The translations under genes were made by a program, and so were the position numbers. Below the pieces are notes generated by a model that was given only the letters and a program-made list of their open reading frames with translations, was not told the origin of the DNA and searched no databases. DNA of 63,991 bases, counting the filler, from Circinaria calcarea (Eukaryota): NCBI GenBank assembly GCA_051942165.1. It is 7 parts of 7 records of this genome, joined end to end, with 100 filler letters (N's around TTAATTAATTAA, not from the genome) between each part and the next. Parts side by side here need not be neighbours in the genome. Positions count along the whole stretch, not along the records: positions 18,569 to 27,751 come from JAVECS010000972.1; 6 more parts are not named here. One strand, 5' to 3'. Positions 9,185 to 53,300 of the stretch are shown piece by piece (the stretch's first letter is position 1; each line of letters opens with the position of its first letter).

Positions 9185-9284
9185 NNNNNNNNNNNNNNNN
9201 NNNNNNNNNNNNNNNNNNNNNNNNNNNNTTAATTAATTAANNNNNNNNNNNNNNNNNNNNNNNNNNNNNNNNNNNNNNNNNNNN
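9185..9284. other. Artificial contig linker (N44-TTAATTAATTAA-N44)
   Basis: Stops in all six frames; identical 100-bp structure at all six junctions. Confidence 0.98.
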
Positions 9285-10403: not shown

Positions 10404-10641
10404 TGAGGCCGTAGAGGACTTTAACTTGAAAAAAAATAAATCTAGGGGGTCAAGGTATGTGGTAACGTGAGGCGAGGCACGAACAAAATACGGCAGTTGA
10501 TACGGCAGTGTGTATGCGCGAGAAGTCAGTCATTTACCGGAGGAGAAATGTGCGAGTGAAAAGGGGTTTTTTCATTGAACGCTAAGAACGCCAACTAAAG
10601 CGACGTGTCGCCTCCCCCCCCCCTAAGCGTAAAGCTTGACG
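10404..10641 (+). mobile_element. Diverged solo-LTR copy, same family as 48134-48338
   Basis: Collinear blocks shared with 48134-48338: AGGCCGTAGAG..ACTTGAAAA..AAGGTATGTGGTAA..GAGGCACGA..TGTGCGAGTGAAA..AACGCCAACTAAA..CCCCCTAA.CGTA. Confidence 0.75.
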
Positions 10642-11097: not shown

Positions 11098-13231
11098 TTA
11101 GTTGCGAGGTTTGAGGACAACGAAAATGTCGCCCCGGGGGAGAATATATGATCGCCAGGTAGCTGAGAGCGAGGCGTCCTTGTCTGCAAGGTGGCAGTCG
11201 TAGTTGGTAAGGATATGGGCGAGAATCAGCTTGATGACGACCACGGCGTGAAATCTTGCCGGGCTTTTGTCGTAGTGAAAAGATTTTCTTTACGTTAGCC
11301 GGGGTTCAATGGTAGTTAGGAAACAAGGCCGAAAAGAGCGGTAAGAAAAGATATATATCGGGAAGTGGGCTCCGACCTACCATGCCATTCTGGTATTTCC
11401 CCACATTCCCCATGCGTAGGAAACATCCGTGAGTTTGGAAGGCCCTTCCGGTTGGGTGAAGGGGATCAGATTTGATTTCCGCAGATCGGTGAAGCGGAAG
11501 CCGTTGAACGTATTGGGGCTCGGATAGAGTTCCGGGTCGTGAAGCATCGGGCGCATGGGAACACAGGTCCAATCTCCCTGGTCCACTCGGGTGCCGTCGG
11601 AGAAGGTGAATCGCTTGAGGGCCTGACGACGCGACGTCACTCGGGAAATGTGTCAGTAGAATGAATTAGCCCGTGAGATAGTGCAAACTGACTAGAATCC
11701 ATTGGATGCATGCGGGCCGATTCTTTGACGAAGCTATCAAGCAATGGGAGCCCCACGGTGGTTTCGGCGAATGTCCTATACTCGGCGCTTTCGAGTTCCT
11801 TGCGCAGAGGCTCCACATACTCGGGATGCAGGCATAGATCGAACAGTGCGTAGGTTGCCGTCTGGGAAAGGTTGCTTAATTAAGCGAACAGGAATAAAGA
11901 CTTTCGCGAGCTCAACTTACGATGGACAGACCGTGGATCGAACCGAACCAAAGTGCCATCATCTCATGGACAATCCTACCGGCAGACCAGGGGTCATTCT
12001 TGGGCGACGTATCCATAATCCATTGGATACCGTCATTCTCTCTTCGGTCAGCCCGGTTGATTGTATACTGGCATGGACTTACTGGGTGATCTTTGGATCT
12101 TTTGCCATCCTTCAGTGGAGCTTGATATTCCAAACGGCGCTCGATATCGCTCTTCAACACACTGTACCAAGTTTCCTGCGTTTTTGTACAGCTGGAAAGG
12201 AACTTTCCAATGTAACTATATTCATTAATTCATTATTCCAAGTTCAAATGTGGAGTTAGACCTACGGAGCAAGAAAGGTAGGCATCACTCGAATCCATTC
12301 CGACGCCCATATAACATGCTCGATATTATCAAAGGCAGCATCCATGAATTCTTGGTTCGACACTAACCATGTTAGAATCTGTTTTGTAATTACCGTTTCA
12401 GGTGCTTACCGAGGTCTCTTCCGAAAAACGCGAACCCGTTGGTTTTAACAACGATTCGTTTCAATTCCTCAAATGCCGGAAAATGCTTCACACCTTGGCA
12501 AGGATTAATTACATGTACACTCAACACGGAGAACAGTTTACCATGAACGGTCTTTGAATTGCTATTATAGGATTTCGTGATTTCATGTTCAATAATAGAG
12601 CGTAGATCTGGCAAGATTTGGGGCAGATGAGCTGTCAACAAAGAGCGAAGGGCCCGAACATAACCAATACCGTCTTGACCTCTTCGATCGACCCAGTTGA
12701 AGCCATGCATAGTGTACTGGGGCTGAAACATCTATTCGGGGATTAGAAAATTTGCAGACACGAATCAATCAAAGAGGCCTAACCTGCTTAGTTGCCGCAA
12801 AAAGCGAAAGTGTATCCTGAGGAGCGCTGTCTATTTCCTTGATCTGTTTCTCTGATGAAATGAAAATGCATTTATGATCTGGAGCATTGATCTCGAAAGG
12901 CTGCCCTTTGGCCTACACGTATATCAACACTGTAATTAGATTTCAAGGCTTGGTGCAGAAATACCAACCTTAAGATAGGCACGGTCAATTTGCTGAGGTC
13001 CAAGGATAAGGAACAACCATGCGTTCAAGAGCCCTTTGACATAAGTATACGGCCATAACAAGGCATCAGTAACTAGCTTCTATCGCGCACATTAGAGTAT
13101 GATGCCTAAGGGAACGGTTTCAATACCAAGCCATGAAAGGTGACAGAGCTGAGGATGGCAGACAGAGAAATAAGGAGGAAAAGTAAAGCCGTTGCTTCCA
13201 AAGACTCCCATTTTGAAGCATATAAAAGCAT
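11098..13231 (-). CDS. Cytochrome P450 monooxygenase (multi-exon)
   Basis: N-terminal TM segment (ATG 13231), I-helix WFGSIH, ExxR (FVKESAR), PERF-like FNGFRF, heme motif WGNTRMAC-PARF split by an intron; stop at 11098-11100. Confidence 0.9.
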
Positions 13232-14399: not shown

Positions 14400-15784
14400 A
14401 TGTCTGCTTCAATACCACCGGGAGTTGACCTCTCGAAGATCCCACTAGAAAGAAACCCAGCGGTCAAGTCGAATTTCGTCGACCCTCCAACCCTTGCTCC
14501 CGCCGTCACTGGAGTAGGCATCATCATGACCATCATCACCGTAGTCTTCGTGTTGATGCGGTTGAACGCAAATCTGCGCTCGGCCCGCAAGATTGGCTGG
14601 GACGACTGTGGGTAGCTATCTTGATCCGTCATAAAAGCCGAGGCTGACCGGTATCTAGGCTTTTGCGTCCTGGCTTTACTCTTGTCCCTCACTTACACGG
14701 GTGTAGTTATAAGCTGTACGATGGAAGTGCACTTACCATGAAGAAGCTCACCCATCATGTAGTGAACACAACCGCGCGACATCCGTGGGACGTTCCACTC
14801 AGCGTCTTTGCTGACCCTTCGTACTCAAAGGTAATAGACGCCTATCATTCCCCCTCCCTTTGGAAACGCAAGTGCTCATTGCCTCATTCAGAGGATCTTC
14901 GTGCTCGGAATGACATTTGGACCAGGTATCTGGTTTGCAAAAGCCGCAATTCTGATGCTTTATCTCCGCGTATTTCAAGTCAAAAGAATTATACGCTTCC
15001 TTATATATTTTGGACTGACTTTTATGTTTGTGCTTTATTGGATAAGTGTTCCGCTATTTTCGTATTATTGCACTCCTCGCGCTGGTGAAGCTTGGGATCT
15101 GACACTACTTGGTAAGTGCCATGTAAATGCCAAGCTTGCACTTGTACAAGGCGTATTTGGCGTGGTCGCAGATATTTACATTTTTATTTTACCCCTTCCG
15201 ACGATATACAATCTGAATCTGGCCTATAAAAAGAAGGTCGGGCTTGCTGCAATTTTCATGACTGGCATTCTCGGAATAATTGCGAGCGCATTGTCCTTGT
15301 ATTTTCGAGTTCTTAACTGGGAGCATAAAGACTCAACCTGGAACTCGGCAAAGGTCTACATTTTCGTGTAGGTCAAGGCACCTTCAGTGCTAAAAATTGC
15401 TGATTCATTGATAGCTTCGTGGAAACCTACGTCACCATCATTGTGGGATGTACACCCGCAGTAGCTTCATTCGGAAGGAATACCATGACGAAATCAGCGC
15501 TCTTCCAGAGTCTCCGATCTTTTCTATCTACAAGTTTACTGCGGTTGACGGGTAAGGAAGATAGTATCGCAGCCGAAGTATATTCAGGCCAGAACAATCA
15601 CGACCCGGAATCTTTATCGCATCTTAAGGAAGGCGATATCGACGAGCTTAATGCTCCACGGCAGATGGCTTACAGTACAGTAACATCTGACGGCAAATAT
15701 GCCGCTGACGGACCACCTTTTATCACAAGAATAGTTAGTCTAGATCAGTGGTCGGAAGGGGGCCGCACTAGTGGCTCAAGCTAG
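14400..15784 (+). CDS. PTH11-like (fungal rhodopsin-domain) 7TM integral membrane protein
   Basis: SNFVDPPTL, GWDD, RHPWDVP, FAKAAILMLYLRVF, DIYIFILPLPTI..L.L..KKVGL..IF.TG, E..V.IIVGC.P; several canonical introns. Confidence 0.9.
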
Positions 15785-16715
15785 GTGTGTAGAGGGTCAG
15801 AGCAGCGGTCATTATGGCATGATTTTATTAACTTAGCAATCTGTGTCTCTACGATATAGCCACATTCATATCAAATCATTAAGCAAAGTAGCAAATAACG
15901 ATTACAAAAAACCTTATCGGGCAGACTACTCCGTATTGGAGGCCTTCAGTCCACCCAGCCGTTCGGAGCAAAAGTCCCAAAAATATACTCCAGCGAATAG
16001 CATGTCCAGGCGCCGAGAGAGCCTAATAACGTCATTAGGACAATAACTTAGCAGGTAGCCTTACCAAGCCACAATAAGCAGCGCAGAGTAGTCAGTCGAA
16101 GAAGAATTGCCTGCAGGACGTTTGTGAACTCTAAAATGGTGGAATCGGACATTTCGAGGCGCGCGTGAAGCCGCATTAGCCCTATGTCCTCCCGACCCAC
16201 ACCTTCCGGTCCTGCATGCAAGCTCAACCGTCGAAGACTCATCCAATGAATTCACTACTCCTCATCATCGTGTTCGCTGAAGCATAAAAGGGCAGTCATC
16301 GGACTCGCTTACAGTAAAACCCGGACTTCGTCTCTTCAAACTAGTGAGTCTATGCGGTGTAAAGGAGTGGTGTCGGCTGTCCCCCTTATGGAGTCGGTCT
16401 CCCCGCCAAGCAGGATAGGGGGGAAACAAACGAGTGGAAACAAATACATATGCGGGCGCGTGATATATCAGCCAACGGGGCCTAAAACAAACAAACCAAG
16501 GTGACCCTGCGTATAAACAAATTTTCTGACTTATGCGACGTCGAATTCAAGACAACGTCTGCACGCCCACTTAAAACAGTATTCGCTGGGCCATATCAAT
16601 CATGCGTCGACTCATGCGCTGACCTCCAATAAGAACGGGGAAATCTTTTGTTGCCCACAGCCCATCATCCTACTATATTGCCGGGCAACCGCATTGATAC
16701 CGCCAAAAGACGGAA

Positions 16716-18352
16716 ATGCGGCTCCTCTCTATTTCCCGTCCCTTACTACTGTCACTGCATCTTCTTTTTCCATCGACAGCATCTGCTGCCATGGCTGATC
16801 CAGCTCTTCACCAAGCTCTCTCAACCGCCCTCAGCGCCAAAGTTTTCCTTCCCGGCACCAGTGGCTACAATGAGAGTACTACCTCCTACTACTCGGCTTT
16901 CGAGCACGAGCTCAAGCCCGGTCTTGTCCTCAAACCAGCTAGCAAGGAGGATGTCGCCGCGATTGTCAAAATCACTAAACCATTTGTAGCCAGAGGGAAA
17001 GTTCAGCTGGCCATTCGCGGAGGCGGTGCTACACCGGTCGCTGGTGTGGCCAATATCAATAATGGGATCACGATTGATATGCGTTCCGTTACCGGCATCA
17101 CGCTCCACCCCGAGAACTCAACCGTGTCTATCGGGGCAGGAGAATCCTGGGGTGACGTCTATGGAAAGCTTGAAGCCGAGGGCCTTGCCGTTGCGGGCGC
17201 CAGAACTTCGAGGTCTGGAGTTGGCGGACACCTTACGAACGGTATTCTCGACCACAGATACGGTGTTACACGGACATGTACACTGACTGCGTACAGGCGG
17301 CCTTTCTTTCTTCTCGGCACGTAAAGGTTTCCCGTGTGACAACGTTGTTAACTTCGAAGTGGTTCTTTCTAGCGGCGAGATTGTGAACGCGAATGCGGAG
17401 GAAAACCGGGACTTGTGGATCGCATTAAGGGGAGGTGGCAACAATTTCGGTATCGTCACTCGCTTTGACATGGCCACGTTCGGACAGGGTCAGCTGTGGG
17501 GAGGCAGCGTGTTTTACGATGCTGCCAAATTCCCCGGGCAGCTGGAAGCCCTCTCCGACTTTCTCACTCGGTCGAATGATGCGTACGCACACATCCTCAT
17601 CAGTGTCGGATACGCCGCCAACTTCGGCGGACTTCTCGCCAAGAACACCGTCTACTACACCACGAACCAGCCCGATCCGCCCGCGCTTCGACCCTTCAGC
17701 ACCGGAATCCAACCGCAGCTGGATGCCCTCCGATCGCTCCGGTCCGCCACCGTGAAGAGCTTTGCCGACGAACAAGCCGCAGGCGGAAAGGATGGTCGCC
17801 GGTAACGTTTCCGCTCTGTTTCCCTTGTTCCGAATGCGTGAACCGGTTGAGCTCATGATCAAGTTTAGGCAACTCTACATGACCACGACCTTCAAACTCG
17901 ACGTCGAGCTCATGCGAGCCGTCACCGACACCTTCCACACCACCGTCGACAACATGAAGCCCGTCCCCGGCCTCATCTATTCGCTGAGCTTCCAGCCCCT
18001 GTCGGAAGCGCTGCTGACCGAATCGGCCGCGCGGGGTGGGAACTCGTTGGGCTTGAGTCCGGCCGACGGCCCGCTGATCGTCGTTCTGCTCTATAGCTAC
18101 TGGGCCGACGCGAGCGATGACAAGACGGTGATCAGCTTGCAGCAAGTGTTCCTGCGGCAAGTGGAGCGACTGGCGGCGACCAGGGGCAAGGCGTCCTCGT
18201 TCAAGTTTATGCCTTACGCGTATGCGGGCCAAGATCCAATCGACGGATACGGTTCGACGAGCAAAGCCAAATTGCAGGCTACGAGTAGGAAATACGATCC
18301 CGATGGATTCTTTCAGAAGGGAGTTCCCGGAGGGTTCAAGCTGTTTCCATAG
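16716..18352 (+). CDS. Secreted FAD-linked oxidoreductase (VAO/BBE-like, FAD_binding_4)
   Basis: Signal peptide, RGGG.T, GVGG...GG, DLWIALRGGGNNFGIVTRF, C-terminal KYDPDGFFQKGVPGGFKL; introns ~17242-17295 and ~17803-17868. Confidence 0.9.
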
Positions 18353-18468
18353 ATTAATAGTAATCGCTTCTATGCCCGAATCGAGATCATTCTTCCTACC
18401 AAAAACTACCAAAGATGCACATATCTCACAGCGATGCCAAGCCCTGCAAAAACTCCGGGGGTATCGCC

Positions 18469-18568
18469 NNNNNNNNNNNNNNNNNNNNNNNNNNNNNNNN
18501 NNNNNNNNNNNNTTAATTAATTAANNNNNNNNNNNNNNNNNNNNNNNNNNNNNNNNNNNNNNNNNNNN
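18469..18568. other. Artificial contig linker
   Basis: N44-TTAATTAATTAA-N44. Confidence 0.98.
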
Positions 18569-18632
18569 TATGGAGTCTATTGAACACGGTCTATAAGCAT
18601 GCTATTCTAAAGAGCGGGAATAGCCTGCTATA

Positions 18633-19737
18633 TATAACACTCTGCTCACTGTGCTCACCTTCCCGAGCATTCTGCTCACCCTGCTCATTCTGCTCACCCC
18701 CATAAGCACCATGAGCACACTGAGCATTCCCACGGTGGAGGTTCCCCCGACCCGCGGTCCTATCCTAACCGGGCCTAGCGCATGTCATGGCGGGCACGCC
18801 ATAACAATTATAATAATTATTATAATTAAAAAAATAAAAATTCCTATACGCAAAATCGAAAAATTTTTAAAAAAATTTTCGATATTATATTAATATTTAT
18901 TCATACCACCATAATTATATTTTATTAATAAATTAAAATTAAAATTAAAATTATTTAAAATATTTAAATTAAAACCGTAGAAAAACGATTAAGTTAAATC
19001 TTTAGCTTTTAATAATAAAGTTATAAAATTTACCGAGCGTTTTAAAACGAGTTATATAACGGGGACGATATTTTAGAAATATAGAGGATCGCGATCGTAG
19101 TAAAAAACCTCGCGATTAAAAATTAATATTAACGGTAAAAACGATCGTAATAGTTAAATAACCTTAATTATAAATACAAATTGAAGTCCGAACGAAAAAA
19201 TACGAAACGGAATAAAAGGAGCCGAATAAATCAGGCCGCGCGAATTAATACGAGCGAGCGAGCGGATATAAAAAAAAGATAAATAAAGAACGGAGGGAAG
19301 GCAGTATTTATATCGCGAGTAAAGCGGCGAAAGACCGCGTTTACGCGTTTTCCCCGATAAGAGGGACGTTAAACCCGGTAAGGTAAATATTAATAAAATA
19401 ATTACGATGAAAATAGCGGTGACGACTTGTTAGGTACTGGTTTTAAAGCTGCGTTGCTTGATAACTGAAGACCGGTGGTGGAGTTGGTGGTTTACTTATT
19501 ACTCTGTTCTTGCATTTGATATGCGCCTTTAAAATACCCTTGATCAAACCGGAGGCAGAAGCATTCACAGCTAAATTACTACGACAGCTAGGTACCTGCA
19601 GTTTTGCGAATCGGCTGGTCGTTTTGCGTATCAAAGACCCCCCACTAGGACCGCAGGTTCGAAGCTGTGGCCGCAATAATGCCCCATAGGTAAGCAAGGT
19701 AAGTAAAGTAAGCCAAGTAAGCAATTCAGATGCTGTG
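18633..19737. mobile_element. Degenerate DNA transposon relic with inverted subterminal repeats and RIP-like AT-rich core
   Basis: Left end has TGCTCAC clusters and ACCCGCGGTCCTA. Right end has TAGGACCGCAGGT and GTAAGCA clusters, the reverse complements with G>A changes. AT-rich interior at ~18800-19430. Confidence 0.55.
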
Positions 19738-19904
19738 GTGATGGGTCGCATGCTGACGCGTAACAGTCAACAGATAAACGCTGAATAATCGATAGACAGA
19801 CGTGGAATGCTGTTTAAATACTCGCAGTGTTGGAAGTCCTATGCCTGCTAGGGTCTAGCTTCACTTATTGTAGCTTCTCAATAAGTAAAGCAAATACTGT
19901 TATA

Positions 19905-22900
19905 ATGATTTCGGCCAAAGTCTTGTACTTTTCGGGAGAAATTCCCCAGGGAGACCCAGAGGGCGATCAAAGAACCCTCTTCAGAAAGCTAAATCTGCTC
20001 AGCAAAGAGCGAGATTATGTGATTCTGGCATCATTGCTGCAGTGTGTGACAGTGGCATTGAAGGACGAGTGTAGCCGACTAAGCCATCTACAACGAGACC
20101 TGATCCCACCTTTCGAAAGCGTCCTCGATTTGACAGATCATGTTGTTCCATTAAGAAAGACGCCACTCGGGGGGGCCATCGAGCGAGTATTGGTTCTTAT
20201 TTTTCAATTGGGAAGCTTTGTTGCGTAAGCTTCACCAAGCCATTCGATGGAATTAGAAAGCTCACCAATGTTCTGGCAAGATATCATGAGGCTCATCCAC
20301 TGGAGTACGATTTCACACCGGCCAGCACCTCACTCATCGGCAGGGGCTTGGGTCTACTCTCGGCAGCTGCAATCGGTCTCTCACCGAGCATTTCGATGAT
20401 ACCAAGCATCGCCCAAGATATCACCCGAATCTCATTTCGTTTTGGTCTGGTTGTCGATCAAGTTTGTCGATCGTTGGAGGTCTCTCACGATGAGATCAAT
20501 ACCGACGGCGCCTGGGTATATTGTGTCCACGGGGTGGATGAGAAAGACGCGCGTGATTCGGTGAATCAATTCAACGAGGACAAAGTCAGCGCAGAACTGG
20601 ATTGGAAGTCGTTGGCAATATGCTAATGAATGCAAAAGGCATATCCTCCAACCAAAGGCGCGTCTGTCTTCAACGTCGACAACGCTGGAGGCTCGGTCAG
20701 CATAGGTGGACCGCCAGAAACGCTGAAGGCGCTTTTTTCCGAGTCTAATGGCTTTAAGAAGACGAAGAATGTGGCAATGAAGAAAATCCAGGGTATGTGG
20801 CATACTGACAGAGTGTATGGTGTGGAACACGTGGGGCAAGTGGTCCCAAAGATCGAATCCACACGGGAGCTGCACATTCCGTTGATATCGCCTGTGAGCG
20901 GAGAGCCGTTTCGGGAGACAAAGGCCGGACCCCTGTTTGAACAGATCATGGAAGAGATATTGACCGAGACGGTGCGGTGGGACATGGTTATTGACACTGT
21001 CACCAAGCAACTGAAGCAGCTGATGCCCAAATCCGCGCAACTGATTAGCATACAGCCATCGCACTATAACCAGAACCTGTTGGAACGCTGGCGGATCGAA
21101 TTGCCCAACGCCACGGTGTCAGACCTCGCTATAATGCCAGCTGTATTGGATTCCATTCTCGGAAAAAGTCCGCCGAAGGACACAAGATCGTCCAAGATTG
21201 CTGTCGTAGGCATGGCATGTCGTTTCCCGGGCGCGGACACCACCGAGGAATTCTGGGAGCGGTTGATGCAGGGGCAAGACATGCACCGCCATGTTCCTCC
21301 CGATCGATTCGACGTCGAAACACACGTAGATCCCACGGGGAAACGACAGAACACGTCAAAGACTCCTTACGGCTGCTTTGTTGATAATCCGGGGCTGTTC
21401 GAAGCTATGTTCTTCGGCATGTCACCCAGAGAGGCTGAACATACGGACCCAATGCAGCGCCTTGCCTTGGTCACGGCATACGAAGCTCTGGAGAACGCTG
21501 GGTATGTTGACGGTCGAGGCGTCATCCATCGCCAGCGCGTTGGCACTTTTTACGGCCAAGCCAGCGACGACTATCGCGAAGTCAACTCTGGACAGGAAGT
21601 AGGCACTTATTTTATTCCCGGTGGATGCAGGGCGTTTGGTCCCGGACGTATCAACTACTTTTTCAATTTCTGGGGCCCTAGCTTTAGTGTCGACACGGCG
21701 TGCTCTTCGAGTTTGGCAGCTATTCAAGCCGCGTGCTCGTCATTGTGGAGTGGAGATGTTGACATGGCCATTACTGTAAGTTGTTCGATTCACATCAAAG
21801 GCCATCAACTCGTGAGCGCTGATAAATCGTGACTGTCACCTTAGGGAGGGATGAATATCCTCACGAACTCTGATGTGTATGCTGGGCTCAGCCAAGGCCA
21901 CTTTCTCTCCCCTACGGGGGGCTGTAAGACTTGGGATGAGGGAGCGGACGGATACTGTAGATCAGGTATGCCGTCATCCCTCCACTCTTAGCACTGCGAG
22001 ATCTTCAAGACGTCCACTGACTAGCATTGCTGAATAGATGGAGTCGGAAGCGTGGTTCTAAAGAGACTCGAGGATGCAGAAGCCGACAACGATAACATCC
22101 TCGCCGTAGTCCTATCGGCAGCTACTTCTCATTCGGCGGAAGCTGTTTCGATCACGCATCCTCACGACGCGGCGCAAGCTCTGTTGTACGACCAGATTGT
22201 CCGACGAGCTGGGATCGATCCCCTGGCGGTAGGTTACGTGGAGATGCACGGCACAGGAACGCAAGCTGGTGATCCTACCGAAATGAGATCGGTGACCAGT
22301 GTGTTCGCGCCTCCCCGTCTTCATGGCCATCGACCGATACCCCTGCATGTGGGCTCAGTCAAAGCCAATATGGGCCATGGAGAGGCTGCTGCGGGAATCA
22401 TGGCTTTCGTCAAGACCATGTTAGTCTTCCAGAAAGGCATCATTCCACCTCATATCGGCGTGAAGACAGGTTTGAATCCTGCACTACCAGACTTGGGCAA
22501 GATGGGCGTCGTTATTCCATTTAAAGCTGCAAATTGGAGCCCGGCCAGTACGCAGAACAGGCTGGCCATGGTCAATAACTTTGGCGCTGCTGGAGGTAAC
22601 ACGGCCATGATCATCGAAGAGGCCAGCCCAAGGCCACGGCTATGCGAAGACACACGAGAAGCCCATGCCATTACGGTTTCAGCAAAGACGGCTCAATCTC
22701 TTGGCTTGAATATCAGGCGCCTTGTCGAGTATATTGAATCTTCGCAAGACTTATCTCTTGCCGACGTCGCCTACACACTCTCGGCCAGGAGACGTCACTA
22801 CGAATACCGGAAATCCGTTGTAGTAAGATCCTTGGCCGACGCCGTCAAACAGCTTCAACCGCACATCGAAACTGCTATGGCTCAGACTCCGACCTTATTG

Positions 22901-25573
22901 AAACGACCCCCGGTCGCTTTTGCTTTTGCTGGCCAAGGCACTTTCTATGTGGGAATTGGAGCGCAGCTTTACCGCGACTCTCCCTTCTTCCACGCGCAGC
23001 TCGATCAGTTTGACAGTCTTGCACGTCGCCAGAACTTCCCGTCCTTCCTACCTGCCATCGATAGAACGAGTGCTCGCGAAAACCTGCCAGCCTCCTCCAT
23101 GCATCTCGCCATCGTATGTGTTGAAATTGCTCTCGCTCGACTATGCATGACGTTTGGAATCAAGCCATGCGCGGTCATTGGACACAGCCTGGGTGAATAT
23201 GCCGCACTGGCCGTGGCTGGTGTGCTGTCCGACAGTGACACAGTCTTCCTCGTCGGGACACGAGCAACCATTCTAGAGTCGAACTGCTCATCTTACACCC
23301 ATGGCATGGTCTCCGTTCGCGCCTCGGTGGCTGATATTACGCGTGAAGCAGATGGCTCGCCATTTGAAGTAGCTTGTATCAACAGCCCGAAGGAGACTGT
23401 TATTGGCGGTACTGTCGAGCATCTGGAAGCTCTTTCGGCTCGTCTGTCCAAGGAAGGGTACAGGACAACGCGTCTGGATATGCCATATGCGTATCATACT
23501 GCTCAGATGGACAACGTCGTCAATGATCTCATTCGCCAAACCCAAGGGATCGTTTACAACACGCCCAGCATTCCCATTATATCTCCTCGAGACTCGACAG
23601 TCATCGAGACAGGCGCTAACTTTGACTCATCGTATTTGCACACCTCCCTACGAAAGACGGTCGACTTCGCTGGAGCTCTCAATGCGGCGTTGGAAGCTGG
23701 CGCGGTGTCGAAATCCACCGTCTGGCTTGAGTTGGCCCATCATCCCGTATGCAGCGGTTTCATCAGCCGTACGCTCGCCGACACTCGTCTAGCGTGCTCA
23801 AGCCTACAGCGAGACAGCGACAATTGGACATCTTTAGCGCAGATGCTGAGCAGCCTATACGAGGTTGGACTCAACATCGACTGGAATGAATACCATCGCC
23901 CATTTGAGCAAGCACTTCGACTTGTCCACCTGCCGACCTACGCTTGGAACAACAAGAACTATTGGATCCAATACCGAGGAGATTGGAATTTGACCAAGGG
24001 CCAGATTTTGCCAGAGCCAGCACTTCCCGTTGTTAGCAGGTTTCGAACATCAAGCATCCATCGACTCTACTCTGAAAATTACGACTCATTAACAGCACAA
24101 GTCTTGGGCGAATCCGATATGACCGACCCATCCCTCAAGGATGTGATAGAAGGGCATGCCATGAACGGTTATGGTGTTGCTTCGTCGGTAAGTTGATAAT
24201 AAACTCCTCCTTTGCTCAAACCTTCTGACCTGTGATAGTTTCTTCATGCCGACATGGCATTTACGCTGGCCCAAAGGATCCAAGAAAAGGCATTCTCGTC
24301 GACATTCAGTGGAATGGGCATCAACGTGGCCAACTTCGAGTATCACGATCCGGTAGTGAAAGATGCAAACCCTCTTGATCCACATCCCATTCTTGTCAAT
24401 GCTGAAGCCAACCTCGAGAAGGGCGAAGTCCACATTAAGTGGTTCAACCCAGCCAATGACAAATGGTACTGCCATGCTACAGCTTACTACGAAGACGCTT
24501 CGACCTGGCTGTCCGATTGGGCTCGAACGACCAGGCTTGTTACCAGTCGCATTGACGCTCTCAATGCTATGTCAATCAAGGGTACGGCAAGCAAACTCAC
24601 CACCGAACTTGCATACACCCTCTTTGGTAAGCTGGTGGATTACTCTAGCATGTATCGCACCATGCAATCGGTCATACTCAACGAAGACGAAGCCATGGCC
24701 GAAGTCTTTTTCCCTGCAGACACCCAAGGAGACTGGGCTGTGCCACCACATTTCATCGATGGTGTTGTATCTCTGTCTGGCTTCATTCTGAATGGCGGCA
24801 CATACTTTGACAACACCAACAACTTCTTCATCACGCCGTCATGGAAGTCCATGCGGTTTGCCAAGCCGTTGGCCCCTGGCGGTCGATATCTTGCATACGT
24901 GAGGATGGTGCCAGAGGCTGCTGACGACAACAGCAATCTTGGCTCTTACGTCGGTGACGTCTATATTTTACAGGACGGCGAGATTGTGGGTGTGGTCGAA
25001 GCCATCTTGTTCCGGCAGTGGCCGAGATTGATGCTGAATCGGTTCTTTCGCCCGGCAGGCTCGGCTCCTCCTGCTCCTACCAAAAAGAAGAGAGCTGCGG
25101 CTCCAAGCCCACTACCATCTGCAAGCTCTCTACAGGAAAAAGCCATGGCGACGGCGGTGGCGGCGAAGACGACTGCGAGACGTCCCGCATCTGCTATTAC
25201 TCCTCCACGTTCTGGACCGACCAGTAAGTCTGGTGGTAGTCCAAATATGACGCTTCAGCTTGATTACAATCTTCCAACGCCAGGAAGCTCGTCACCTCTG
25301 AATGAACGAACAGAAAAGACCGACAGCGATAGCGGCGACGAAGAAGCTGATGGCGATGATATTGCATCACGCGCTATAGTCCTATTGGCCGAACAGCTCG
25401 CCGTTGATATAGGCTTACTGACCGACGAGTGTAACATTACGGATATTGGGCTTGACTCGCTCATGTCGCTCGTTATTTCACAGAATTTGCGAGAGAATCT
25501 TGGCATCGAGATTCGTGATGCGTTCTTCCTCGAAGTGGCAACGATTGGGGACTTGAAAAGGATGATTTCCTAA
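19905..25573 (+). CDS. Non-reducing PKS, SAT-KS-AT-PT-ACP, no TE; GsfA/norlichexanthone synthase-like
   Basis: Introns 20225-20280, 20585-20638, 21776-21844, 21966-22037 and 24188-24238 join into one frame. KS DTACSSS/HGTGT/GHGE, AT GHSLG, PT GHAMNG, ACP IGLDSL, then stop. N-terminus ([21 protein letters not shown]) matches my recollection of GsfA; not database-verified. Confidence 0.92.
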
Positions 25574-25637
25574 ACAGATTGTTTGCTTGTTTTCCTGCCG
25601 TGCGCAACGCTCCCAGTAGTGCACCACACTACCAACA

Positions 25638-25930
25638 CTTGGGGGGTTCAGTTTTCCTTTGTTATGCTCGGAGGATGTTAGGTAGGCCCGGAATAACAAT
25701 GCTCCCAGCCAATCAATACTCGTCTGCCAGGCCACCCCCGCCTGGCTTTACATAGCTCCATTGTACATCCACAACGGAGCTATGTTATGCTAGTGGACCT
25801 AGTGTGGCCAATACGAATGCACAGTTTCTGCCAGCTTGGCACCCGTGCTTTACAGCATCGGGCTTAGCCCATCGGTGCCGTGCTCCCGAGCATAACAAAT
25901 TTCTAGCAAAGAAAAACTGAACCCCCCAAG
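25638..25930. mobile_element. MITE-like inverted-repeat element just 3' of the PKS
   Basis: CTTGGGGGGTTCAGTTTTCCTTTGTTATGCTCGG ... CCGAGCATAACAAA(insert)GAAAAACTGAACCCCCCAAG. Flanked by CA/TA; internal hairpin 25750-25785. Confidence 0.7.
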
Positions 25931-27751
25931 TATTTTCATGAACAGAGTTAATTTAATGAACTTTAGAACCACGAATTCCTCTATGATAATACCGCAGCAT
26001 CCATTCGCAGTATGGGGCTCGGGGCTAATAGAAAGGGCAGTAGAATGCGGAGAAGGTACATTTTCACATCAGACATAAGTTTTTACAAAGAAAACTTGGG
26101 AAAGGCGCGACCAACGGATAGATGGGAGCTCATTACATGCTTGACTTTTGCTATGGCGTCAGCACTATACTACAGGAGGTGAGCTCCGGAACGGGGTAAC
26201 CTCGGACCAGTTGCTCAGGATGTTTATGGAGGTATGGAGGTGAGTAAGGTAGTATATAGGCAGGCTATTCCTGCTCTTTAGAATAGCATGCTTATAGCCA
26301 TACATGGAACAACAACAGATCAATATTACGTTCCTAGTAATCGTGCACACCGGAGTGGCTCTATCCCTTATACAAGTCTAGCCCTATCCTAGCACCCTTA
26401 CAATTTTCCTAGATCTTATATGGGAAGTCACCTACCCACGCCAGCCAACCTCCGAGAAATCCTCACCACCTATTCTGGACCCTGCACATCCATCCTATAA
26501 AGAGCTTCGGCATCAGCAGGTGTTGTTCAGGATTAAATGTAGGTGATACAGCAGTGCGGGCATAAAATCACTTCTTTCTCACAAGCCCCGCTTTCACCAC
26601 TCTCTCAAGGTCTAATGCATGTCCGAATATCCAAGAGTGACATGCTGCATAGCTCAAAGGTCTGTAAAGTATCCTAAACCTAATGGCAGTATGACGCTTC
26701 CATTTGTTCTGCGACTTGCATATTGCGTAGTATGCTGTGTAACTTTACTTTGTGTTTTAAACCCCGTGCTCTGCATTACCTTTCTAGATAACGGGCCATT
26801 CGATTCGATACGACCAATGATTGCTTCGAGAGCTCAATAAATAGGAAGACGATCTTGCTGCTTCAAGTCGGTGAGGTTGATTCTTTAATGCACTCTCCAA
26901 ATCAGCGTCTAGTTTAACGTGGCTCCATTGCCTTTGATATCTGCAAGAAGAGGAGGACGTACTCGGAGATCGTCCACCGGTCCCCTCTATGTTCTGCTTG
27001 GTGTAACCTATGAAAGCGGAACAGATCTGAAGATAGTGTATGCAGACCCTCGCCTATCTATCTACCTACCTTACATGCTGCTTCGGGCACGGGCACGAAC
27101 CTCCTTTGTTGCTGCTCTCCGCATCCTAATAGCATTCAACATCCAAAAGTCTATCTCACAAACTGACATGATGAATTCTTAGTGCTCATGGAAGCGGCCC
27201 TCGAAGCCTTCGATGCTCTCCAAGGCAAGAACCTTGCCTGTTACCCTAAAGACGGGGGTTAGTACCACTTCTTGCTCAGCCACACACGCTCATATGGCCT
27301 CTTTTTCTAACTGGCCCTTTACGTTCAGTCTCGGGGTCATGCCGACGGGACTCAGACTGTTGTTCCGGGTGTTGCTATGTTCGCGTGACGCGAAGCATTA
27401 CCGTCAAGCCTGGTATTGCAGAAGCGGTATTCCAGATGCGATACATGAAGAAAGAGTCCTGTCATTCTGGCGTGAATGACATTTAAGAGTGGACATGGGC
27501 AGGAACCCCAAGGATGATAGAACACAATTCACTCGCCGAGTATACACTTTTGGCCATTTCCGCATCCAAGACTGTTCAGCAGACCTAGTGCTTATTAATT
27601 TCATCTCGAGATCGACTTCCGCTCCTCCCCTTCCCCGCCTTCCCTTATCCCAAAAAAAGGAAAAGTGACACAATGACCTCAAAGTACCCGTCCCTCTCCG
27701 CAAAGTTCCCTCCCAAGCAAGAATCCTTCCCCTTACCCTCCCCTCCGCCCC

Positions 27752-27851
27752 NNNNNNNNNNNNNNNNNNNNNNNNNNNNNNNNNNNNNNNNNNNNTTAAT
27801 TAATTAANNNNNNNNNNNNNNNNNNNNNNNNNNNNNNNNNNNNNNNNNNNN
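27752..27851. other. Artificial contig linker
   Basis: N44-TTAATTAATTAA-N44. Confidence 0.98.
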
Positions 27852-27889: not shown

Positions 27890-28181
27890 ATGACATTTAT
27901 CGTGTAGACATCATGTGTGCGAGTACATCAAGATATTATGTGTGTGAATATATTAAGTGTACAACGACACGTGTGCGAGTACATTAAGTGTATATTGATA
28001 TGTGTGCGAGTACATTAAGTGTACAATGATATTTGTCCACAGACATTATATATACAAGTACATTAAGTGTATAATGATATTTGTCCACAGACATTATATG
28101 TACAAGTACATTAAGTGTATAATAATATTTGTCCACAGACATTATTTGTGTAAATACACTAGGTGTATAATAACATTTGTC
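27890..28181. repeat. AT-rich minisatellite, 48-bp unit (GTACATTAAGTGTATAATGATATTTGTCCACAGACATTAT..) with shorter degenerate units 5'
   Basis: About 4 units at 48-bp spacing from ~28010; truncated units upstream. Confidence 0.85.
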
Positions 28182-29667: not shown

Positions 29668-31701
29668 ATGGCCCGCAGTCAACAAAAATTTGACACCAGG
29701 GAAAATGGGCGGCAATCTTTAAACCGTGGTGGGAAATTCCATACACTCATCCATCCTGTTTCCGACTGACCATTAACAGGAAAGCGCCCTCAGGGTATCA
29801 CGAAGCATCAACCACAAACAGCTAATCGCAAGAGCGCACGTCTGGAAGCGATACAGCATCTCGAGGGGCGAACGGACTCCAAAGGCCAAAACACTAAACG
29901 GCATCCATTTTCCTCTCCGTTAACAAGTAATACTCGCAGTTCGGTATGTCCTCTACTCGCTTTGATATTATCTGTTGAAACCTAATCCTAAGGAAAGTGC
30001 TCACAGAACTTACCGGCTTATAAGAAACCTACATGCCCAGATCAAAGAATCATTTCAAAGCGAAAGCGATCACAAGGGACTGAAGATCCAATCCCTCAAA
30101 TTGAGGACCAGCCCATTAATCCAGAGAGAAAGACTTTCACAAGGGAGAACGAAGAACATCATCAGCTACCATCACCATCAACAAGCAACTCACACGAGCA
30201 ACCAACTAGGAAGAAAAGGAGGAGGGCTGTTTCCATAATACCGCGCTCGGAGGAAATTAATAACTGCTATCCGAAAAGGCGCGACAGTCCCATTTTTGAG
30301 ACGCCTGAACAAGAGCCTGAAGCCCAAGAAAGCGAAGAGAAAAAGAAAGATAACCCTATCGGCTACTGGGCCGCGAACCATACCTGGCCCGACAACTTTG
30401 CAGAGTCCTGTGCAATGTCTTCGGACAACATCAATAAACGACCGCGAACGTCGGATCATTCTCAAAGCAGCAAAGACGAGAAATCACGGAGCTATTCTCA
30501 AAGTCGTAAGGATGGAGATGTTCCGGAGCAATATACCAAGACATACGAAAAGTGGATTTTCACACAAGGTCTGGACATGAGTTATATCAAAGGCAGGGAA
30601 TATATTTCTCCAGACAGCAAGCTGGCTTGCCAAGAACTTCGAAAAATAGAATACTCGGTCATCTCTCCTACTATTTATCCTGAGGATAAAATAATCCATG
30701 TGGTCGACCTTTGCCAGAATACAAATGAAGCAACGGTAAACCGGGACATTACGACGCTGATTTTGCCGCCAATCAAAGCACTTCACTTAACGGACGAAGC
30801 AAACCGTTTCAAACATTTTACGGACCAAGTCAAGTCGCAGTGGCATGAGAGTTGGGTTCTAGCAGGGCCCCGGCCTGAACCTGACCTGGCCGTTGGTTTC
30901 CTCCATTCCGCTTTCACAGTATCGGAAAATGAAAAACTAACCAACTACACATCCTTTGAAAACTTGACGCGATCAACCAACGAAATGTGTTTCCCGTTCC
31001 TGATGTGCGAGGTCAAGTGTGGCGACAAAGGACTTGACTACGCTGACCGGCAGAACATGCACAGCTGCAGTGTGGCAGTCAAAGCACTTCTTAAGCTCGA
31101 GCAAAAGGCGGATCAGTACCGAGAGGATAAATTATTTGAAAGCTTGCTTGGCAAGATCCTAGTGTATTCCATCTCACACGATCAAAATGATGCCCGCGTC
31201 TGGGGGCACTTTGCCTTGGTTGAAGGAGGAAAATGGACGTATTATCGATACCATATTGGGAAGTTCGACATTGCACATGACGAGAGGGCCTTGCTAGCCC
31301 TTCATAACTTTGCTCGCAAAGTTCTAACCGTATACGCTCCGAAACTATTGGAACGTCTTCAGAAAGCAGTTGCAGCTCTCCCGGTCTCATCTACGCTATC
31401 ATTCTCTGCAGGTACGATGAACTTAGAGGACGACTCGCAGCAAAGCTCCCAACAACCCTCGCAGGGTCGAGATGCCGACTTGTTTGCGGCTCCCGTTCTC
31501 CCTGCCAGTGCCCAGAAACTGTTCGACGAGCAAAAGGAGCAGATGGAACGGCAAAAGGAGCAGATTGAACGGCAAAGGGAGGAAATGGACAAGCTCCTTC
31601 AGCAGATGGAGCAGCAGAGAAAGGAGAACAAGGAGAAGGAAGAAAAGCAAAGGGAGCAGATGGAACAACTCATGAAAATGCTGGAACAAAGATTAGCTTA
31701 A
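29668..31701 (+). CDS. PD-(D/E)xK-like domain protein (DUF7924-type by recall) with disordered N-terminus and coiled-coil C-terminus
   Basis: ATG 29668 and two small introns give an open frame through PIGYWAANHTWP, PRPEPDLAVG, FPFLMCEVKCG, ADRQNMHS, SISHD..ARVWGH and an EQMERQKEQIERQ tail. Confidence 0.8.
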
Positions 31702-31984
31702 TATTCATTGATTATTCTCCTATATCGACGCTTGTATGATTAGTATCCTGGCCTCACAAAAGTGTCATGTTCTGCGATAAGGGGGTGGTGATACCCCGCT
31801 CACCTAGTGCCTTGGCATATATTGAAAACCCCTCCTTTCTTCTGTAACGATTAGTTTTTGAATATACTACGTATAATCATCGTACTGCTCGTGCCTCACA
31901 TTACCATATATTTTAATCTTAGATACTTTTCAATTACTCTACGACCTAATAAAAAGTACCCTAATCTAATTATTGTTCTAAAAC

Positions 31985-37021: not shown

Positions 37022-37121
37022 NNNNNNNNNNNNNNNNNNNNNNNNNNNNNNNNNNNNNNNNNNNNTTAATTAATTAANNNNNNNNNNNNNNNNNNNNNNN
37101 NNNNNNNNNNNNNNNNNNNNN
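37022..37121. other. Artificial contig linker
   Basis: N44-TTAATTAATTAA-N44. Confidence 0.98.
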
Positions 37122-46290: not shown

Positions 46291-46390
46291 NNNNNNNNNN
46301 NNNNNNNNNNNNNNNNNNNNNNNNNNNNNNNNNNTTAATTAATTAANNNNNNNNNNNNNNNNNNNNNNNNNNNNNNNNNNNNNNNNNNNN
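46291..46390. other. Artificial contig linker
   Basis: N44-TTAATTAATTAA-N44. Confidence 0.98.
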
Positions 46391-48133: not shown

Positions 48134-48338
48134 TGTAAGGCCGTAGAGTACTTTACTTGAAAAGTACCTAAGGCTAAGGTATGTGGTAATGTGAGGCACG
48201 AGCAATACGATGGCTATACGCAGTATATGCGAGAATTAATCATTATAGGAGAAGAAGTGTGCGAGTGAAAGGTTTTCATTATACGCCAAAACGCCAACTA
48301 AACGAGGTTTCGTCACCCCCTAACCGTAGAGCCTAACA
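48134..48338 (+). mobile_element. Solo LTR (205 bp, TG...CA) with perfect 5-bp TSD TGTAT
   Basis: TGTAT|TGTAAGG...CCTAACA|TGTAT; related copy at 10404-10641. Confidence 0.88.
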
Positions 48339-52800: not shown

Positions 52801-53300
52801 AACGGTGGAAAGAAGCCGAGGAATTGGGGGTGCAAGTTCTAGAAGTGTCTAAGAAAATCCTCGGAGCAGAGCATCCTGATACGCTGGTCAGTATGAATAA
52901 CCTAGTATTGACATATCTACATCAAGTACGGCTGGATAAAGCTGAGGAGCTGCAACTGCAAGTCGTTGAAACGAATAAAAGGCTGTTAAGAACAGAGAAT
53001 CCTGGTGCTATGACCGATATGCACAATCTAGCGTGTATCTATGATTCGCTGGATCGGGAGTTTATGGCGATAGCATTGATGACTGTGGCCGTTCAATGGC
53101 GTGAAAAAAATCTTGGTGCGGATCATCCTGACACAAAAGAATCTACTGGGTTCCTACGCAGGTGGAAGGGAGAAGTAGATGGGGGAGAAGAAGACGAGAG
53201 AGAGGAAGACGAGTACGAGGGAGAAGAAGACGAGGAAGAAGAAGACCAGGGAGAAGAAGACGAGGGAGAAGAAGACGAGGGAGAAGAAGTCGATGACTAG
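49851..53300 (+). CDS. Fungal NLR: patatin-like phospholipase - NB-ARC - TPR, with acidic tail
   Basis: Patatin motifs LSL|DGGGVRG, GGTSTGG, RATSAA, FVDGA..NNP, SVGTG. Intron 51042-51105 joins in frame to FVGRE, Walker A GMGGQGKS, Walker B WLMIFDNYD, HPLAITQAGAYI, LHPLI, then 42-aa LG.EHP.T..SMNNLA TPRs. Confidence 0.92.
53181..53291 (+). repeat. 15-bp coding tandem repeat GGAGAAGAAGACGAG (GEEDE)n
   Basis: Directly visible at the NLR C-terminus. Confidence 0.9.

What the first reader, a model, noticed from the sequence alone, without database searches (positions are those of the whole stretch)
19905..25573. Stand-alone GsfA-like TE-less NR-PKS: candidate (nor)lichexanthone synthase
Seen: intact SAT-KS-AT-PT-ACP with catalytic motifs and no TE/CLC/R domain. 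No metallo-beta-lactamase or tailoring gene is recognisable in the 1.3 kb upstream or 2.2 kb downstream, and TE relics lie on both sides. Known: TE-less group V NR-PKSs usually need a separate MbL thioesterase, except GsfA of the griseofulvin pathway, which self-releases a heptaketide that yields norlichexanthone. Recall: the N-terminus and KS look very close to GsfA. Inference: a griseofulvin-type PKS detached from its cluster could make the xanthone scaffold typical of lichens, and may have been relocated or horizontally acquired.
Basis: partly seen in the sequence, partly recalled or inferred. Interest (0 to 1): 0.75.

Follow-up and report, generated by a model that had tools for sequence, protein, structure and literature searches.

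The report
Griseofulvin-type PKS on a short contig
An intact fungal gene about 90% identical to the enzyme that starts griseofulvin synthesis sits alone on a 9-kb assembly fragment grouped with a lichen fungus, so it is still open whether the lichen itself owns it.

Summary
The gene is real. It has six exons (19905-25573, + strand) and encodes 1788 aa with the order SAT-KS-AT-PT-ACP, all catalytic motifs and no releasing domain. It is a GsfA orthologue: 91% identical end to end to a Xylaria castorea protein, and 86.5% (90% over KS-AT) to X. flabelliformis FHL15_010257, the published gsfA of that species. It is not an atrochrysone-type synthase (45-47%).

The "64-kb window" is seven contigs of about 9.2 kb joined by 100-nt N/TTAATTAATTAA linkers. 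The PKS is the only gene on piece 3 (18569-27751). Nothing links the PKS physically to the lichen housekeeping genes. One of those, on piece 5, is 100% identical to a Circinaria calcarea protein.

Within the contig, the usual neighbours gsfB (233-1211 bp downstream in four published clusters) and gsfI are absent. Both flanks show no coding signal.

The most likely product is the heptaketide benzophenone/norlichexanthone scaffold, as in Apiospora, which also lacks the tailoring genes.

Two origins remain about equally likely: a gene transferred horizontally into the lichen fungus, or a mis-binned contig from a fungus living in the lichen. This is a new member of a known kind, of moderate interest.

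The parts
18469..18568 (.). Artificial linker (44 N + TTAATTAATTAA + 44 N) marking the join between contig pieces 2 and 3
   Evidence: six identical 100-nt linkers in the window; one search shows the sequence
18569..27751 (.). Contig piece 3 (9183 nt), the only sequence physically linked to the PKS
   Evidence: the pieces measure 9184, 9184, 9183, 9170, 9169, 9152 and at least 8349 nt
27752..27851 (.). Artificial linker between pieces 3 and 4
18591..18634 (.). Upstream copy of a 45-nt inverted repeat, 22 nt from the contig start
   Evidence: 95.6% over 45 nt against 26253-26297, inverted
18800..19420 (.). AT-rich (27% GC) RIP-like tract with short AT tandem repeats and no coding signal
   Evidence: (TpA/ApT 1.23, (CpA+TpG)/(ApC+GpT) 0.77 for 19001-20000), 67, 71, 62
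19905..25573 (+). gsfA-type non-reducing PKS gene. Exons: 19905-20224, 20281-20584, 20639-21775, 21845-21965, 22038-24187, 24239-25573 (stop at 25571-25573)
19905..21154 (+). SAT domain (model residues 1-380). The GXCXG position reads GRGLG, with no Cys, as in all 15 aligned group V and wA rows
21176..22600 (+). KS domain (residues 388-815): Cys563 at 21701-21703, His698 at 22247-22249, His741 at 22376-22378
22868..23890 (+). Malonyl-CoA:ACP acyltransferase domain (residues 905-1245): GHSLGE with Ser1011 at 23186-23188
24023..25051 (+). Product template domain (residues 1290-1615): His1334 at 24155-24157. 94.5% identical to X. castorea
25352..25570 (+). ACP (residues 1716-1788): GLDSL with Ser1751 at 25457-25459. 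The protein ends here
25574..27751 (.). 2178-nt downstream flank with no detectable coding signal. gsfB would lie here in the canonical cluster
26253..26297 (.). Downstream copy of the 45-nt inverted repeat

Best explanation
The feature is an intact orthologue of gsfA, the thioesterase-less group V3 non-reducing polyketide synthase of the griseofulvin pathway.

Shown: the gene structure, the SAT-KS-AT-PT-ACP order, intact catalytic residues, a C-terminus at the ACP, placement inside the GsfA clade, and the absence of gsfB, gsfI, a metallo-beta-lactamase gene or any other coding signal on its 9.2-kb contig.

Inferred from the characterised enzyme and from Apiospora: the enzyme loads acetyl-CoA and extends it with six malonyl-CoA. 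Its PT domain directs the C8-C13 aldol and C1-C6 Claisen cyclisations, so the heptaketide leaves without a separate thioesterase as the benzophenone. Without the GsfB/GsfC methylations, that benzophenone becomes norlichexanthone.

Not shown: which genome owns the contig. The window is a chain of separate ~9.2-kb contigs. The PKS contig is only co-binned with contigs of a Circinaria calcarea-like lichen fungus. I rate 'lichen fungus, by horizontal transfer' and 'co-occurring non-lichenised fungus, mis-binned' as about equally likely.
For: Gene model with no internal stop, aligning end to end at 91.1% to P0001. Pfam domains in 5 of 5 sense segments and no releasing domain. Motifs and C-terminus match the orthologues.

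Clade: 19-row GsfA clade with support 100, and a 12-row core with support 98 (49 rows). With unnamed hits added, the window pairs with P0241 (97%, support 99) inside the core (40 rows). P0003 is FHL15_010257, listed as gsfA within the syntenic X. flabelliformis cluster and 80.28% identical to P. aethiopicum GsfA. Gene length is 5669 nt, against 5667 (X. flabelliformis) and 5672 (P. aethiopicum).

Constraint pattern: KS 95.8% and PT 94.5%, against 78% for the PT-ACP linker.

Function of the family: passages in PMC4205913, PMC4591646 and PMC9210304 section 3. Precedent without tailoring genes: PMC10999098.

Concatenation: six linkers. Piece 5 is 9169 nt, equal to the longest_contig given for P0121, which is 100% identical over 902 aa.
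Against: No product, transcript or expression data exist. I could not compare directly with P. aethiopicum GsfA, because the characterised protein itself was not among the returned hits. The link runs through orthologues.

The SAT lacks the canonical Cys, although so do all 15 aligned rows. The window has GRGLG where 7 of the 7 other aligned GsfA-clade rows have GRGSG or GRGPG.

The sister clade, at 63-68% identity, makes alternariol with a different first cyclisation. Product prediction therefore rests on clade membership, not on tested PT residues.

In the passages I read, Circinaria is reported with aspicilin and not with xanthones.

The contig is too short to show that the tailoring genes are absent from the genome.
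Confidence: 0.72

Rival explanations
1. Origin A. The contig belongs to the lichen-forming fungus (Circinaria calcarea or a close relative). That fungus acquired gsfA horizontally from a fungus carrying the gsf cluster and kept only the PKS.
For: The contig is grouped with contigs whose C1-THF synthase is 100% identical to a C. calcarea protein. Codon usage (GC3 0.563, within 0.37-0.655 for the other pieces' genes) and tetranucleotide profile (r 0.51-0.64, against 0.52-0.73 among the other pieces) are not outliers. Window plus P0241 form their own lineage (support 99), not nested in Xylaria or Penicillium. A 97% relative exists in ENA, just as 95-98% relatives of the housekeeping protein do. 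Among the best 120 C1-THF hits (all at least 88%) no Sordariomycete or Eurotiales protein appears, yet the PKS is 91% identical to Xylaria. Vertical descent is therefore implausible. There is an AT-rich RIP-like tract like those on pieces 1, 2 and 6, with a marginal match to piece 1 (50.4 bits against a best shuffle of 44.1).
Against: There is no physical linkage to any host marker. The composition tests have little power among Pezizomycotina. None of the 18 hits at 76% or above is a lichen-forming fungus. A BLAST of GsfA against 23 lichen genomes found only hits of about 37% similarity (PMC9146135). No xanthone is reported for Circinaria in the passages read.
Confidence: 0.4
2. Origin B. The contig comes from a non-lichenised fungus living in or on the thallus (endolichenic or lichenicolous) and was mis-binned with the mycobiont.
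For: All named members of the GsfA clade are non-lichenised Xylariales, Eurotiales, Hypocreales, Diaporthales or Amphisphaeriales. Xylaria, Aspergillus and Talaromyces are among the predominant endolichenic fungi, and norlichexanthone has been isolated from endolichenic fungi (PMC10889713 passages). The assembly is highly fragmented and the contig carries no other gene. The 91% identity to Xylaria exceeds what a housekeeping enzyme shows even within Lecanoromycetes (88-92%).
Against: It is not close to any sequenced genus (at most 91%; its own lineage with P0241). Composition is not an outlier in the bin. In the griseofulvin-cluster-bearing relatives with published coordinates, gsfB and gsfI abut gsfA, but here they do not. 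The source would therefore have to be an unsampled fungus with an Apiospora-like solo arrangement.
Confidence: 0.45
3. The PKS is part of a complete but rearranged or more widely spaced gsf cluster that the fragmented assembly cut away. In that case the producer makes griseofulvin-type grisans rather than a plain xanthone.
For: The contig ends 1.3 and 2.2 kb from the gene. The seven core gsf genes usually travel together (PMC9210304 section 10). The upstream end falls in a repeat.
Against: In the 4 of 4 clusters with coordinates that I read, gsfB lies 233-1211 bp past the gsfA 3' end, and in 3 of 4 gsfI ends 611-1278 bp upstream. Both should be at least partly visible here, yet 0 of 12 read-through frames show any family. 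Across all translated segments of the window (98 + 145 + 108 ORFs) there is no O-methyltransferase or halogenase. The only P450 is two weak fragments on another contig.
Confidence: 0.15
4. It makes alternariol or another heptaketide with a C2-C7 first cyclisation, like SnPKS19/PksI, rather than the GsfA benzophenone.
For: The sister clade is close (63-68% identity; PT 72% to P0021). It shares the same architecture and chain length (PMC4591646).
Against: The window sits inside the GsfA clade (support 100), separate from the SnPKS19-type rows. Its PT is 94.5% identical to the Xylaria orthologue.
Confidence: 0.06
5. It is an MbL-thioesterase-dependent atrochrysone/anthrone synthase (MdpG/ACAS type) whose partner gene lies off the contig.
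For: It is thioesterase-less like all group V enzymes.
Against: It is 44-47% identical to ACAS-type hits, which form a separate clade with support 100. No Lactamase_B was found anywhere in the window.
Confidence: 0.02

Closest known systems
GsfA, the norlichexanthone/griseofulvin NR-PKS of Penicillium aethiopicum, and its orthologues in gsf clusters (X. flabelliformis FHL15_010257 = P0003, P. griseofulvum P0008, A. alliaceus P0005)
   Same: Same SAT-KS-AT-PT-ACP order, no releasing domain, the same C-terminus and conserved catalytic motifs. Full-length identity is 85-91% and KS identity 92-96%. Gene length is nearly the same (5669 against 5667 and 5672 nt). All fall in one clade with support 100.
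   Different: It is not flanked by gsfB (downstream) or gsfI (upstream) as in the published clusters. It was found in a lichen metagenome bin rather than a mould or endophyte genome. With P0241 it forms a separate lineage.
GsfA-like PKS of Apiospora arundinis and other Apiospora ('PKS9'), linked to norlichexanthone
   Same: A GsfA-clade PKS that stands without the gsf tailoring genes. The organism produces norlichexanthone (PMC10999098 passages; PMC13173838 passage). It is 80-82% identical to the window.
   Different: Apiospora forms a separate subclade. Its locus is known on a contiguous genome, whereas this one is known only over 9.2 kb.
Alternariol synthases SnPKS19 (Parastagonospora nodorum, P0021) and related PKS19/PksI
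   Same: Group V3, same architecture, heptaketide chain length and C8-C13 cyclisation (PMC4591646). 67.6% identical.
   Different: It is the sister clade, not the same clade. The first cyclisation register and the product differ.
Atrochrysone carboxylic acid synthases (MdpG/ACAS/Agnpks1/PtaA, group V1)
   Same: Thioesterase-less SAT-KS-AT-PT-ACP enzymes with the same GxGxG at the SAT motif.
   Different: Only 44-47% identical and a distinct clade. They need a neighbouring MbL thioesterase, and none is present here.

Membership tests
Group V (thioesterase-less) fungal NR-PKS | SAT-KS-AT-PT-ACP with no C-terminal TE/CLC or reductase domain | tested here: met
   Pfam. The C-terminus aligns with the end of the group V relatives, and only the wA-type P0112 continues, by 350 aa. 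The 2178-nt downstream read-through holds no further domain.
Group V (thioesterase-less) fungal NR-PKS | Intact catalytic residues (KS Cys/His/His, AT Ser, PT His, ACP Ser) | tested here: met
Subgroup V3, GsfA clade | Phylogenetic placement with gsfA orthologues rather than with alternariol-type or atrochrysone-type enzymes | tested here: met
   (support 100 for the clade). The anchor is P0003 = FHL15_010257, listed as gsfA in the PMC9210304 supplement.
gsf (griseofulvin) biosynthetic gene cluster | gsfA flanked by gsfB (convergent, 233-1211 bp downstream) and by gsfI upstream, with gsfC-F beyond | tested here: not met
   Cluster coordinates. Both flanks are empty in 12 of 12 read-through frames and in the ORF scans. 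The test is limited to 1336 nt upstream and 2178 nt downstream.
gsf (griseofulvin) biosynthetic gene cluster | The seven core genes gsfA-F and gsfI are present in the genome | not testable with these tools
   Only this window is available. No O-methyltransferase or halogenase appears on its seven contigs.
Norlichexanthone synthase (function) | The enzyme alone releases the heptaketide benzophenone/norlichexanthone | not testable with these tools
   Known for GsfA only second-hand (PMC4205913 citing Cacho 2013). Cacho 2013 and Chooi 2010 are not held.
MbL-thioesterase-dependent anthrone synthases (group V1) | Clade membership and an adjacent metallo-beta-lactamase-type thioesterase gene | tested here: not met
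   44-47% identity and a separate clade. No Lactamase_B in any scan.
Gene of the lichen-forming fungus | Physical linkage to mycobiont marker genes | tested here: not met
   Linkers separate the PKS contig from every other gene. Composition tests are inconclusive.

The most novel reading that the evidence does not exclude
A lichen-forming Lecanoromycete (Circinaria calcarea lineage) captured gsfA by horizontal transfer from a fungus carrying the griseofulvin cluster, perhaps one living inside lichens. It lost or never received the tailoring genes and keeps the PKS under purifying selection as a self-releasing xanthone synthase. That would be the first GsfA-clade enzyme in a lichen fungus and a concrete route by which lichens obtained xanthone chemistry.
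Probability: 0.3. Interest if true: 0.7.

Novelty: new member of a known kind. Interest (0 to 1): 0.33.

Why it matters
The passages I read name no enzyme from a lichen-forming fungus for lichen xanthones (lichexanthone, norlichexanthone and their chlorinated forms). A GsfA-clade gene that truly belonged to a lichen fungus would give a directly testable candidate and a clear case of transfer between fungal classes. My literature searches found no report of a GsfA orthologue in a lichen-forming fungus. One survey of 23 lichen genomes found only distant hits.

There is also a practical lesson. The window is a chain of unrelated contigs, so any claim here about neighbourhood, 'stand-alone' status or host must be judged inside 9.2 kb. 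Contamination by fungi that live in lichens is a serious alternative.

Tried and rejected
1. Thioesterase relics. tblastn of the TE-bearing C-termini of P0112 and P0059, and of full P0001 and P0112, against the window found nothing outside the gene better than E=1.9.

2. Transposon protein relics. Pfam on all ORFs of 50 aa or more and on 12 read-through frames with stops as X found none.

3. Target-site duplication or defined ends for the 45-nt inverted repeat. The outer flanks differ, and the similarity fades into a gappy alignment that runs to the contig start. I therefore make no claim of a mobile element.

4. Shared repeats linking piece 3 to the other contigs. The only match is 53 nt of AT-rich sequence with piece 1, at 50.4 bits against 28-44 bits in 20 shuffles. 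That is too weak to use.

5. Codon usage and tetranucleotide profiles for host assignment. The PKS contig is not an outlier, but the test cannot separate Pezizomycotina.

6. No tRNA on the contig.

The GsfA anchor came from a paper supplement instead.

8. Cacho 2013 and Chooi 2010 are not held, so the biochemistry is cited second-hand.

9. At first I treated the FAD-oxidase, rhodopsin-like and P450 genes at 11-18.5 kb as PKS neighbours. I dropped this once the linkers showed that they lie on another contig.

10. The missing SAT Cys as a sign of inactivity. I rejected this because all 15 aligned rows share GxGxG.

The genome collection on hand holds only bacteria and archaea, so no fungal genomic context could be fetched, including the 15,260-nt contig that encodes P0241.

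Full report
**What is at the coordinates.**
Stop-to-stop ORFs on the + strand between 19.8 and 25.6 kb carry SAT, KS (N and C), KS-AT linker, AT, PS-DH (the PT domain) and PP-binding Pfam matches in 5 of 5 segments, and no thioesterase or reductase. Joining them at five GT-AG introns of 56, 54, 69, 72 and 51 nt gives a 5367-nt CDS. It runs from the ATG at 19905 to the stop at 25571-25573 and encodes 1788 aa without an internal stop.

The model aligns 1-1788 to 1-1789 of the best full-length hit at 91.1% identity, which validates the splice sites and both ends. KS Cys563/His698/His741, AT Ser1011, PT His1334 and ACP Ser1751 are in place. The protein ends with the ACP, level with its relatives. 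The SAT motif reads GRGLG, without Cys. All 15 aligned rows, including the characterised-type relatives, also have GxGxG, so this says nothing about inactivity.

**What the window really is.**
Reading the upstream flank showed runs of N around TTAATTAATTAA. A scan found six identical 100-nt linkers (44 N, the 12-mer, 44 N). They lie at 9185-9284, 18469-18568, 27752-27851, 37022-37121, 46291-46390 and 55543-55642. They cut the window into pieces of 9184, 9184, 9183, 9170, 9169, 9152 and at least 8349 nt.

The window is therefore a chain of separate contigs, in descending length, from a fragmented assembly. The PKS is the only gene on piece 3 (18569-27751). The FAD-linked oxidase, the rhodopsin-domain gene and the P450 fragments at 11-18.5 kb lie on piece 2. 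The housekeeping genes lie on pieces 5-7. None of them is physically linked to the PKS.

**Which organism.**
The C1-tetrahydrofolate synthase on piece 5 is 100% identical over 902 aa to P0121, named by its source as a Circinaria calcarea protein. The contig length given for that protein (9169) equals the length of piece 5. All other named hits among the best 120 (88-92%) are lichen-forming or allied taxa. The collection of contigs is therefore a bin of a Circinaria-like lichen fungus. That is not evidence for the PKS contig itself.

**What the PKS is related to.**
I searched with the KS-AT exon (716 aa) among longer proteins. The 18 best hits (76-92%) are from Xylaria castorea, X. flabelliformis, Penicillium canescens, P. 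egyptiacum, P. griseofulvum, P. coprophilum, P. atrosanguineum, Aspergillus alliaceus, Conoideocrella, Diaporthe, Apiospora and Poronia. None is a lichen-forming fungus.

A second tier (59-73%, mostly 61-68%) holds SnPKS19-type enzymes and six lichen MAG proteins. The rest (45-49%) are atrochrysone-type enzymes (best 120 of 6913 shown).

Among proteins of similar length, the closest is P0241, an unnamed ENA ORF on a 15,260-nt contig. It is 97% identical over 712 aa. Nineteen more unnamed hits follow at 78-86% (best 120 of 2141 shown).

I built a tree of 49 rows: the model plus 48 of the 120 hits. Most atrochrysone-type rows and a few fragments were left out, and nine atrochrysone-type rows served as outgroup. 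It places the window inside a 19-row GsfA clade (SH-aLRT 100) and a 12-row core (98). That core also holds Xylaria, Penicillium, A. alliaceus, Conoideocrella and D. amygdali. With the 20 unnamed hits added (40 rows, KS-AT only), the window pairs with P0241 (99). The pair forms its own lineage in that core and is not nested in any named genus.

The anchor to the characterised pathway is P0003. Its source name is FHL15_010257, and the supplement of Aris et al. lists that protein as gsfA of the X. flabelliformis cluster (gene order I-010256-A-B-C-D-E-F) with 80.28% identity to P. aethiopicum GsfA. The window is 86.5% identical to P0003 over the full length and 90% over KS-AT. Gene length also matches: 5669 nt here, 5667 in X. 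flabelliformis and 5672 in P. aethiopicum. Divergence is concentrated in linkers (78%) rather than in KS (95.8%) or PT (94.5%), the pattern expected under purifying selection (inference).

**Is it detached from its cluster?**
The supplement gives coordinates for four clusters.
- gsfB lies convergently 458 bp (P. aethiopicum), 235 bp (Memnoniella echinata), 233 bp (X. flabelliformis) and 1211 bp (P. griseofulvum D-756) beyond the 3' end of gsfA. It is about 1.44 kb long.
- gsfI ends 611, 874 and 1278 bp upstream in three of them. X. flabelliformis has one extra gene in between.

In this contig gsfB should therefore lie wholly or largely within the 2178-nt downstream flank, and the end of gsfI within the upstream flank. 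Neither is there. ORFs of 50 aa or more gave only two sub-threshold chance matches in the flanks. Six-frame read-through translations with stops as X gave 0 families in 12 of 12 frames at E up to 0.1.

The canonical gsfI-gsfA-gsfB arrangement is therefore absent at this locus. Whether tailoring genes exist elsewhere in the same genome cannot be told from 9.2 kb. The other six contigs hold no O-methyltransferase or halogenase, but they are an arbitrary sample of the assembly.

**The 'TE relics'.**
Read as thioesterase, there are none. Read as transposable elements, no transposase or reverse-transcriptase signal exists. The flanks do contain three other things.
- An AT-rich tract at 18800-19420 (27% GC) with RIP-like dinucleotide ratios, upstream only.
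- A 45-nt inverted repeat, 95.6% identical, at 18591-18634 and 26253-26297. It brackets the gene, and the upstream copy sits 22 nt from the contig start.
- Short tandem repeats.

I found no target-site duplication and no definable element ends.

**How it most likely works.**
[quoted passage not shown] It performs C8-C13 aldol and C1-C6 Claisen cyclisations and releases the benzophenone/norlichexanthone without the metallo-beta-lactamase thioesterase that other group V enzymes need.

Apiospora arundinis has a GsfA-like PKS (76.5% to GsfA) with no other gsf homologue apart from a 32%-similar O-methyltransferase, and it produces norlichexanthone (PMC10999098). By clade membership and 94.5% PT identity I infer the same chemistry here, ending at norlichexanthone if no methyltransferase acts. 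This step is inferred, not shown.

**Whose gene is it?**
Vertical descent is implausible. A fast-evolving PKS is 91% identical between this bin and Xylaria. The highly conserved C1-THF synthase reaches only 88-92% even among Lecanoromycetes, and no Sordariomycete or Eurotiales protein reaches its top 120. Path lengths tell the same story: window to Xylaria is 0.11, against about 0.7 between lichen and Aspergillus atrochrysone-type enzymes in the same tree.

Two readings remain.
1. Horizontal transfer into the lichen fungus. This is supported weakly by unremarkable codon usage and tetranucleotide profile, by the separate window/P0241 lineage and by an AT-rich tract like those on other pieces.
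2. A contig from a fungus living in the thallus, mis-binned. This is supported by the complete absence of named lichen fungi from the clade and by a published BLAST of GsfA against 23 lichen genomes that found only hits of about 37% similarity (PMC9146135). Xylaria, Aspergillus and Talaromyces are also prominent endolichenic fungi, some of which yield norlichexanthone (PMC10889713). Finally, Circinaria chemistry is reported as aspicilin, not xanthones, in the passages read.

I cannot separate the two with the tools at hand and rate them 0.40 and 0.45.

**Novelty and verdict.**
The enzyme family, its self-release and even the 'solo PKS gives norlichexanthone' arrangement are known. What is new is a distinct GsfA-clade lineage recovered from a lichen metagenome bin. 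My literature searches found no report of a GsfA orthologue in a lichen-forming fungus. It is a new member of a known kind. Its interest depends almost wholly on the unresolved host question.

Noticed in passing
window 9185-9284, 18469-18568, 27752-27851, 37022-37121, 46291-46390, 55543-55642: Six identical 100-nt linkers (44 N + TTAATTAATTAA + 44 N) show that the window is seven contigs of about 9.2 kb in descending length, not one locus. Any neighbourhood claim made across these joins is void.
   Followed up: yes
hits P0019, P0022, P0023, P0028, P0032, P0041: Six lichen MAG proteins (Trypethelium x2, Pyrenula, Bathelium, Bogoriella, Chrysothrix) fall in the SnPKS19-type sister clade, at 63-68% identity to the window. 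Five of them form one group with support 98. Trypetheliaceae are noted for lichexanthone (PMC2816970 passages). These may be better candidates for a lichen xanthone synthase than the window's gene.
   Followed up: partly
window 10406-10618, 31763-31947, 48138-48338: A repeat of about 200 nt (72-73% identity) occurs on pieces 2, 4 and 6. Two of the three copies (10406-10618, 48138-48338) fall in 1-kb windows with RIP-like dinucleotide ratios. This suggests that these three contigs share one genome. Piece 3 has no copy.
   Followed up: no
window 11380-11879, - strand (piece 2): Two weak P450 fragments (profile positions 279-337 and 342-393; E 1e-5 and 7e-5) lie in different frames and overlap by 13 nt, leaving no room for an intron. 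This may be a frameshifted or decaying P450 gene.
   Followed up: no
window 14838-15368 and 16698-18468, + strand (piece 2): A fungal-rhodopsin-domain membrane protein gene and a FAD_binding_4 oxidase gene. The oxidase runs up to the contig end. They looked like PKS neighbours until the linker was seen.
   Followed up: partly
window 50417-53297, + strand (piece 6): A patatin-like fragment followed by a 770-aa ORF with NB-ARC and TPR repeats. This is a fungal NLR-like gene.
   Followed up: no
window 29992-31698, + strand (piece 4): A single-exon 569-aa ORF with a strong DUF7924 match (E 1e-60), followed by DUF7770 and phosphotransferase-like ORFs. Function unknown.
   Followed up: no
window 27968-28181 (start of piece 4): A tandem array of four copies with 48-nt spacing (31 nt before the first copy), 64-92% identical, right at a contig start. 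A repeat like this probably broke the assembly there.
   Followed up: no
PMC9210304 supplement: All gsf proteins of X. flabelliformis (Sordariomycetes) are 80-90% identical to those of P. aethiopicum (Eurotiomycetes), and gene order is conserved. The whole cluster looks horizontally mobile between classes. I saw no test of this in the sections I read.
   Followed up: partly
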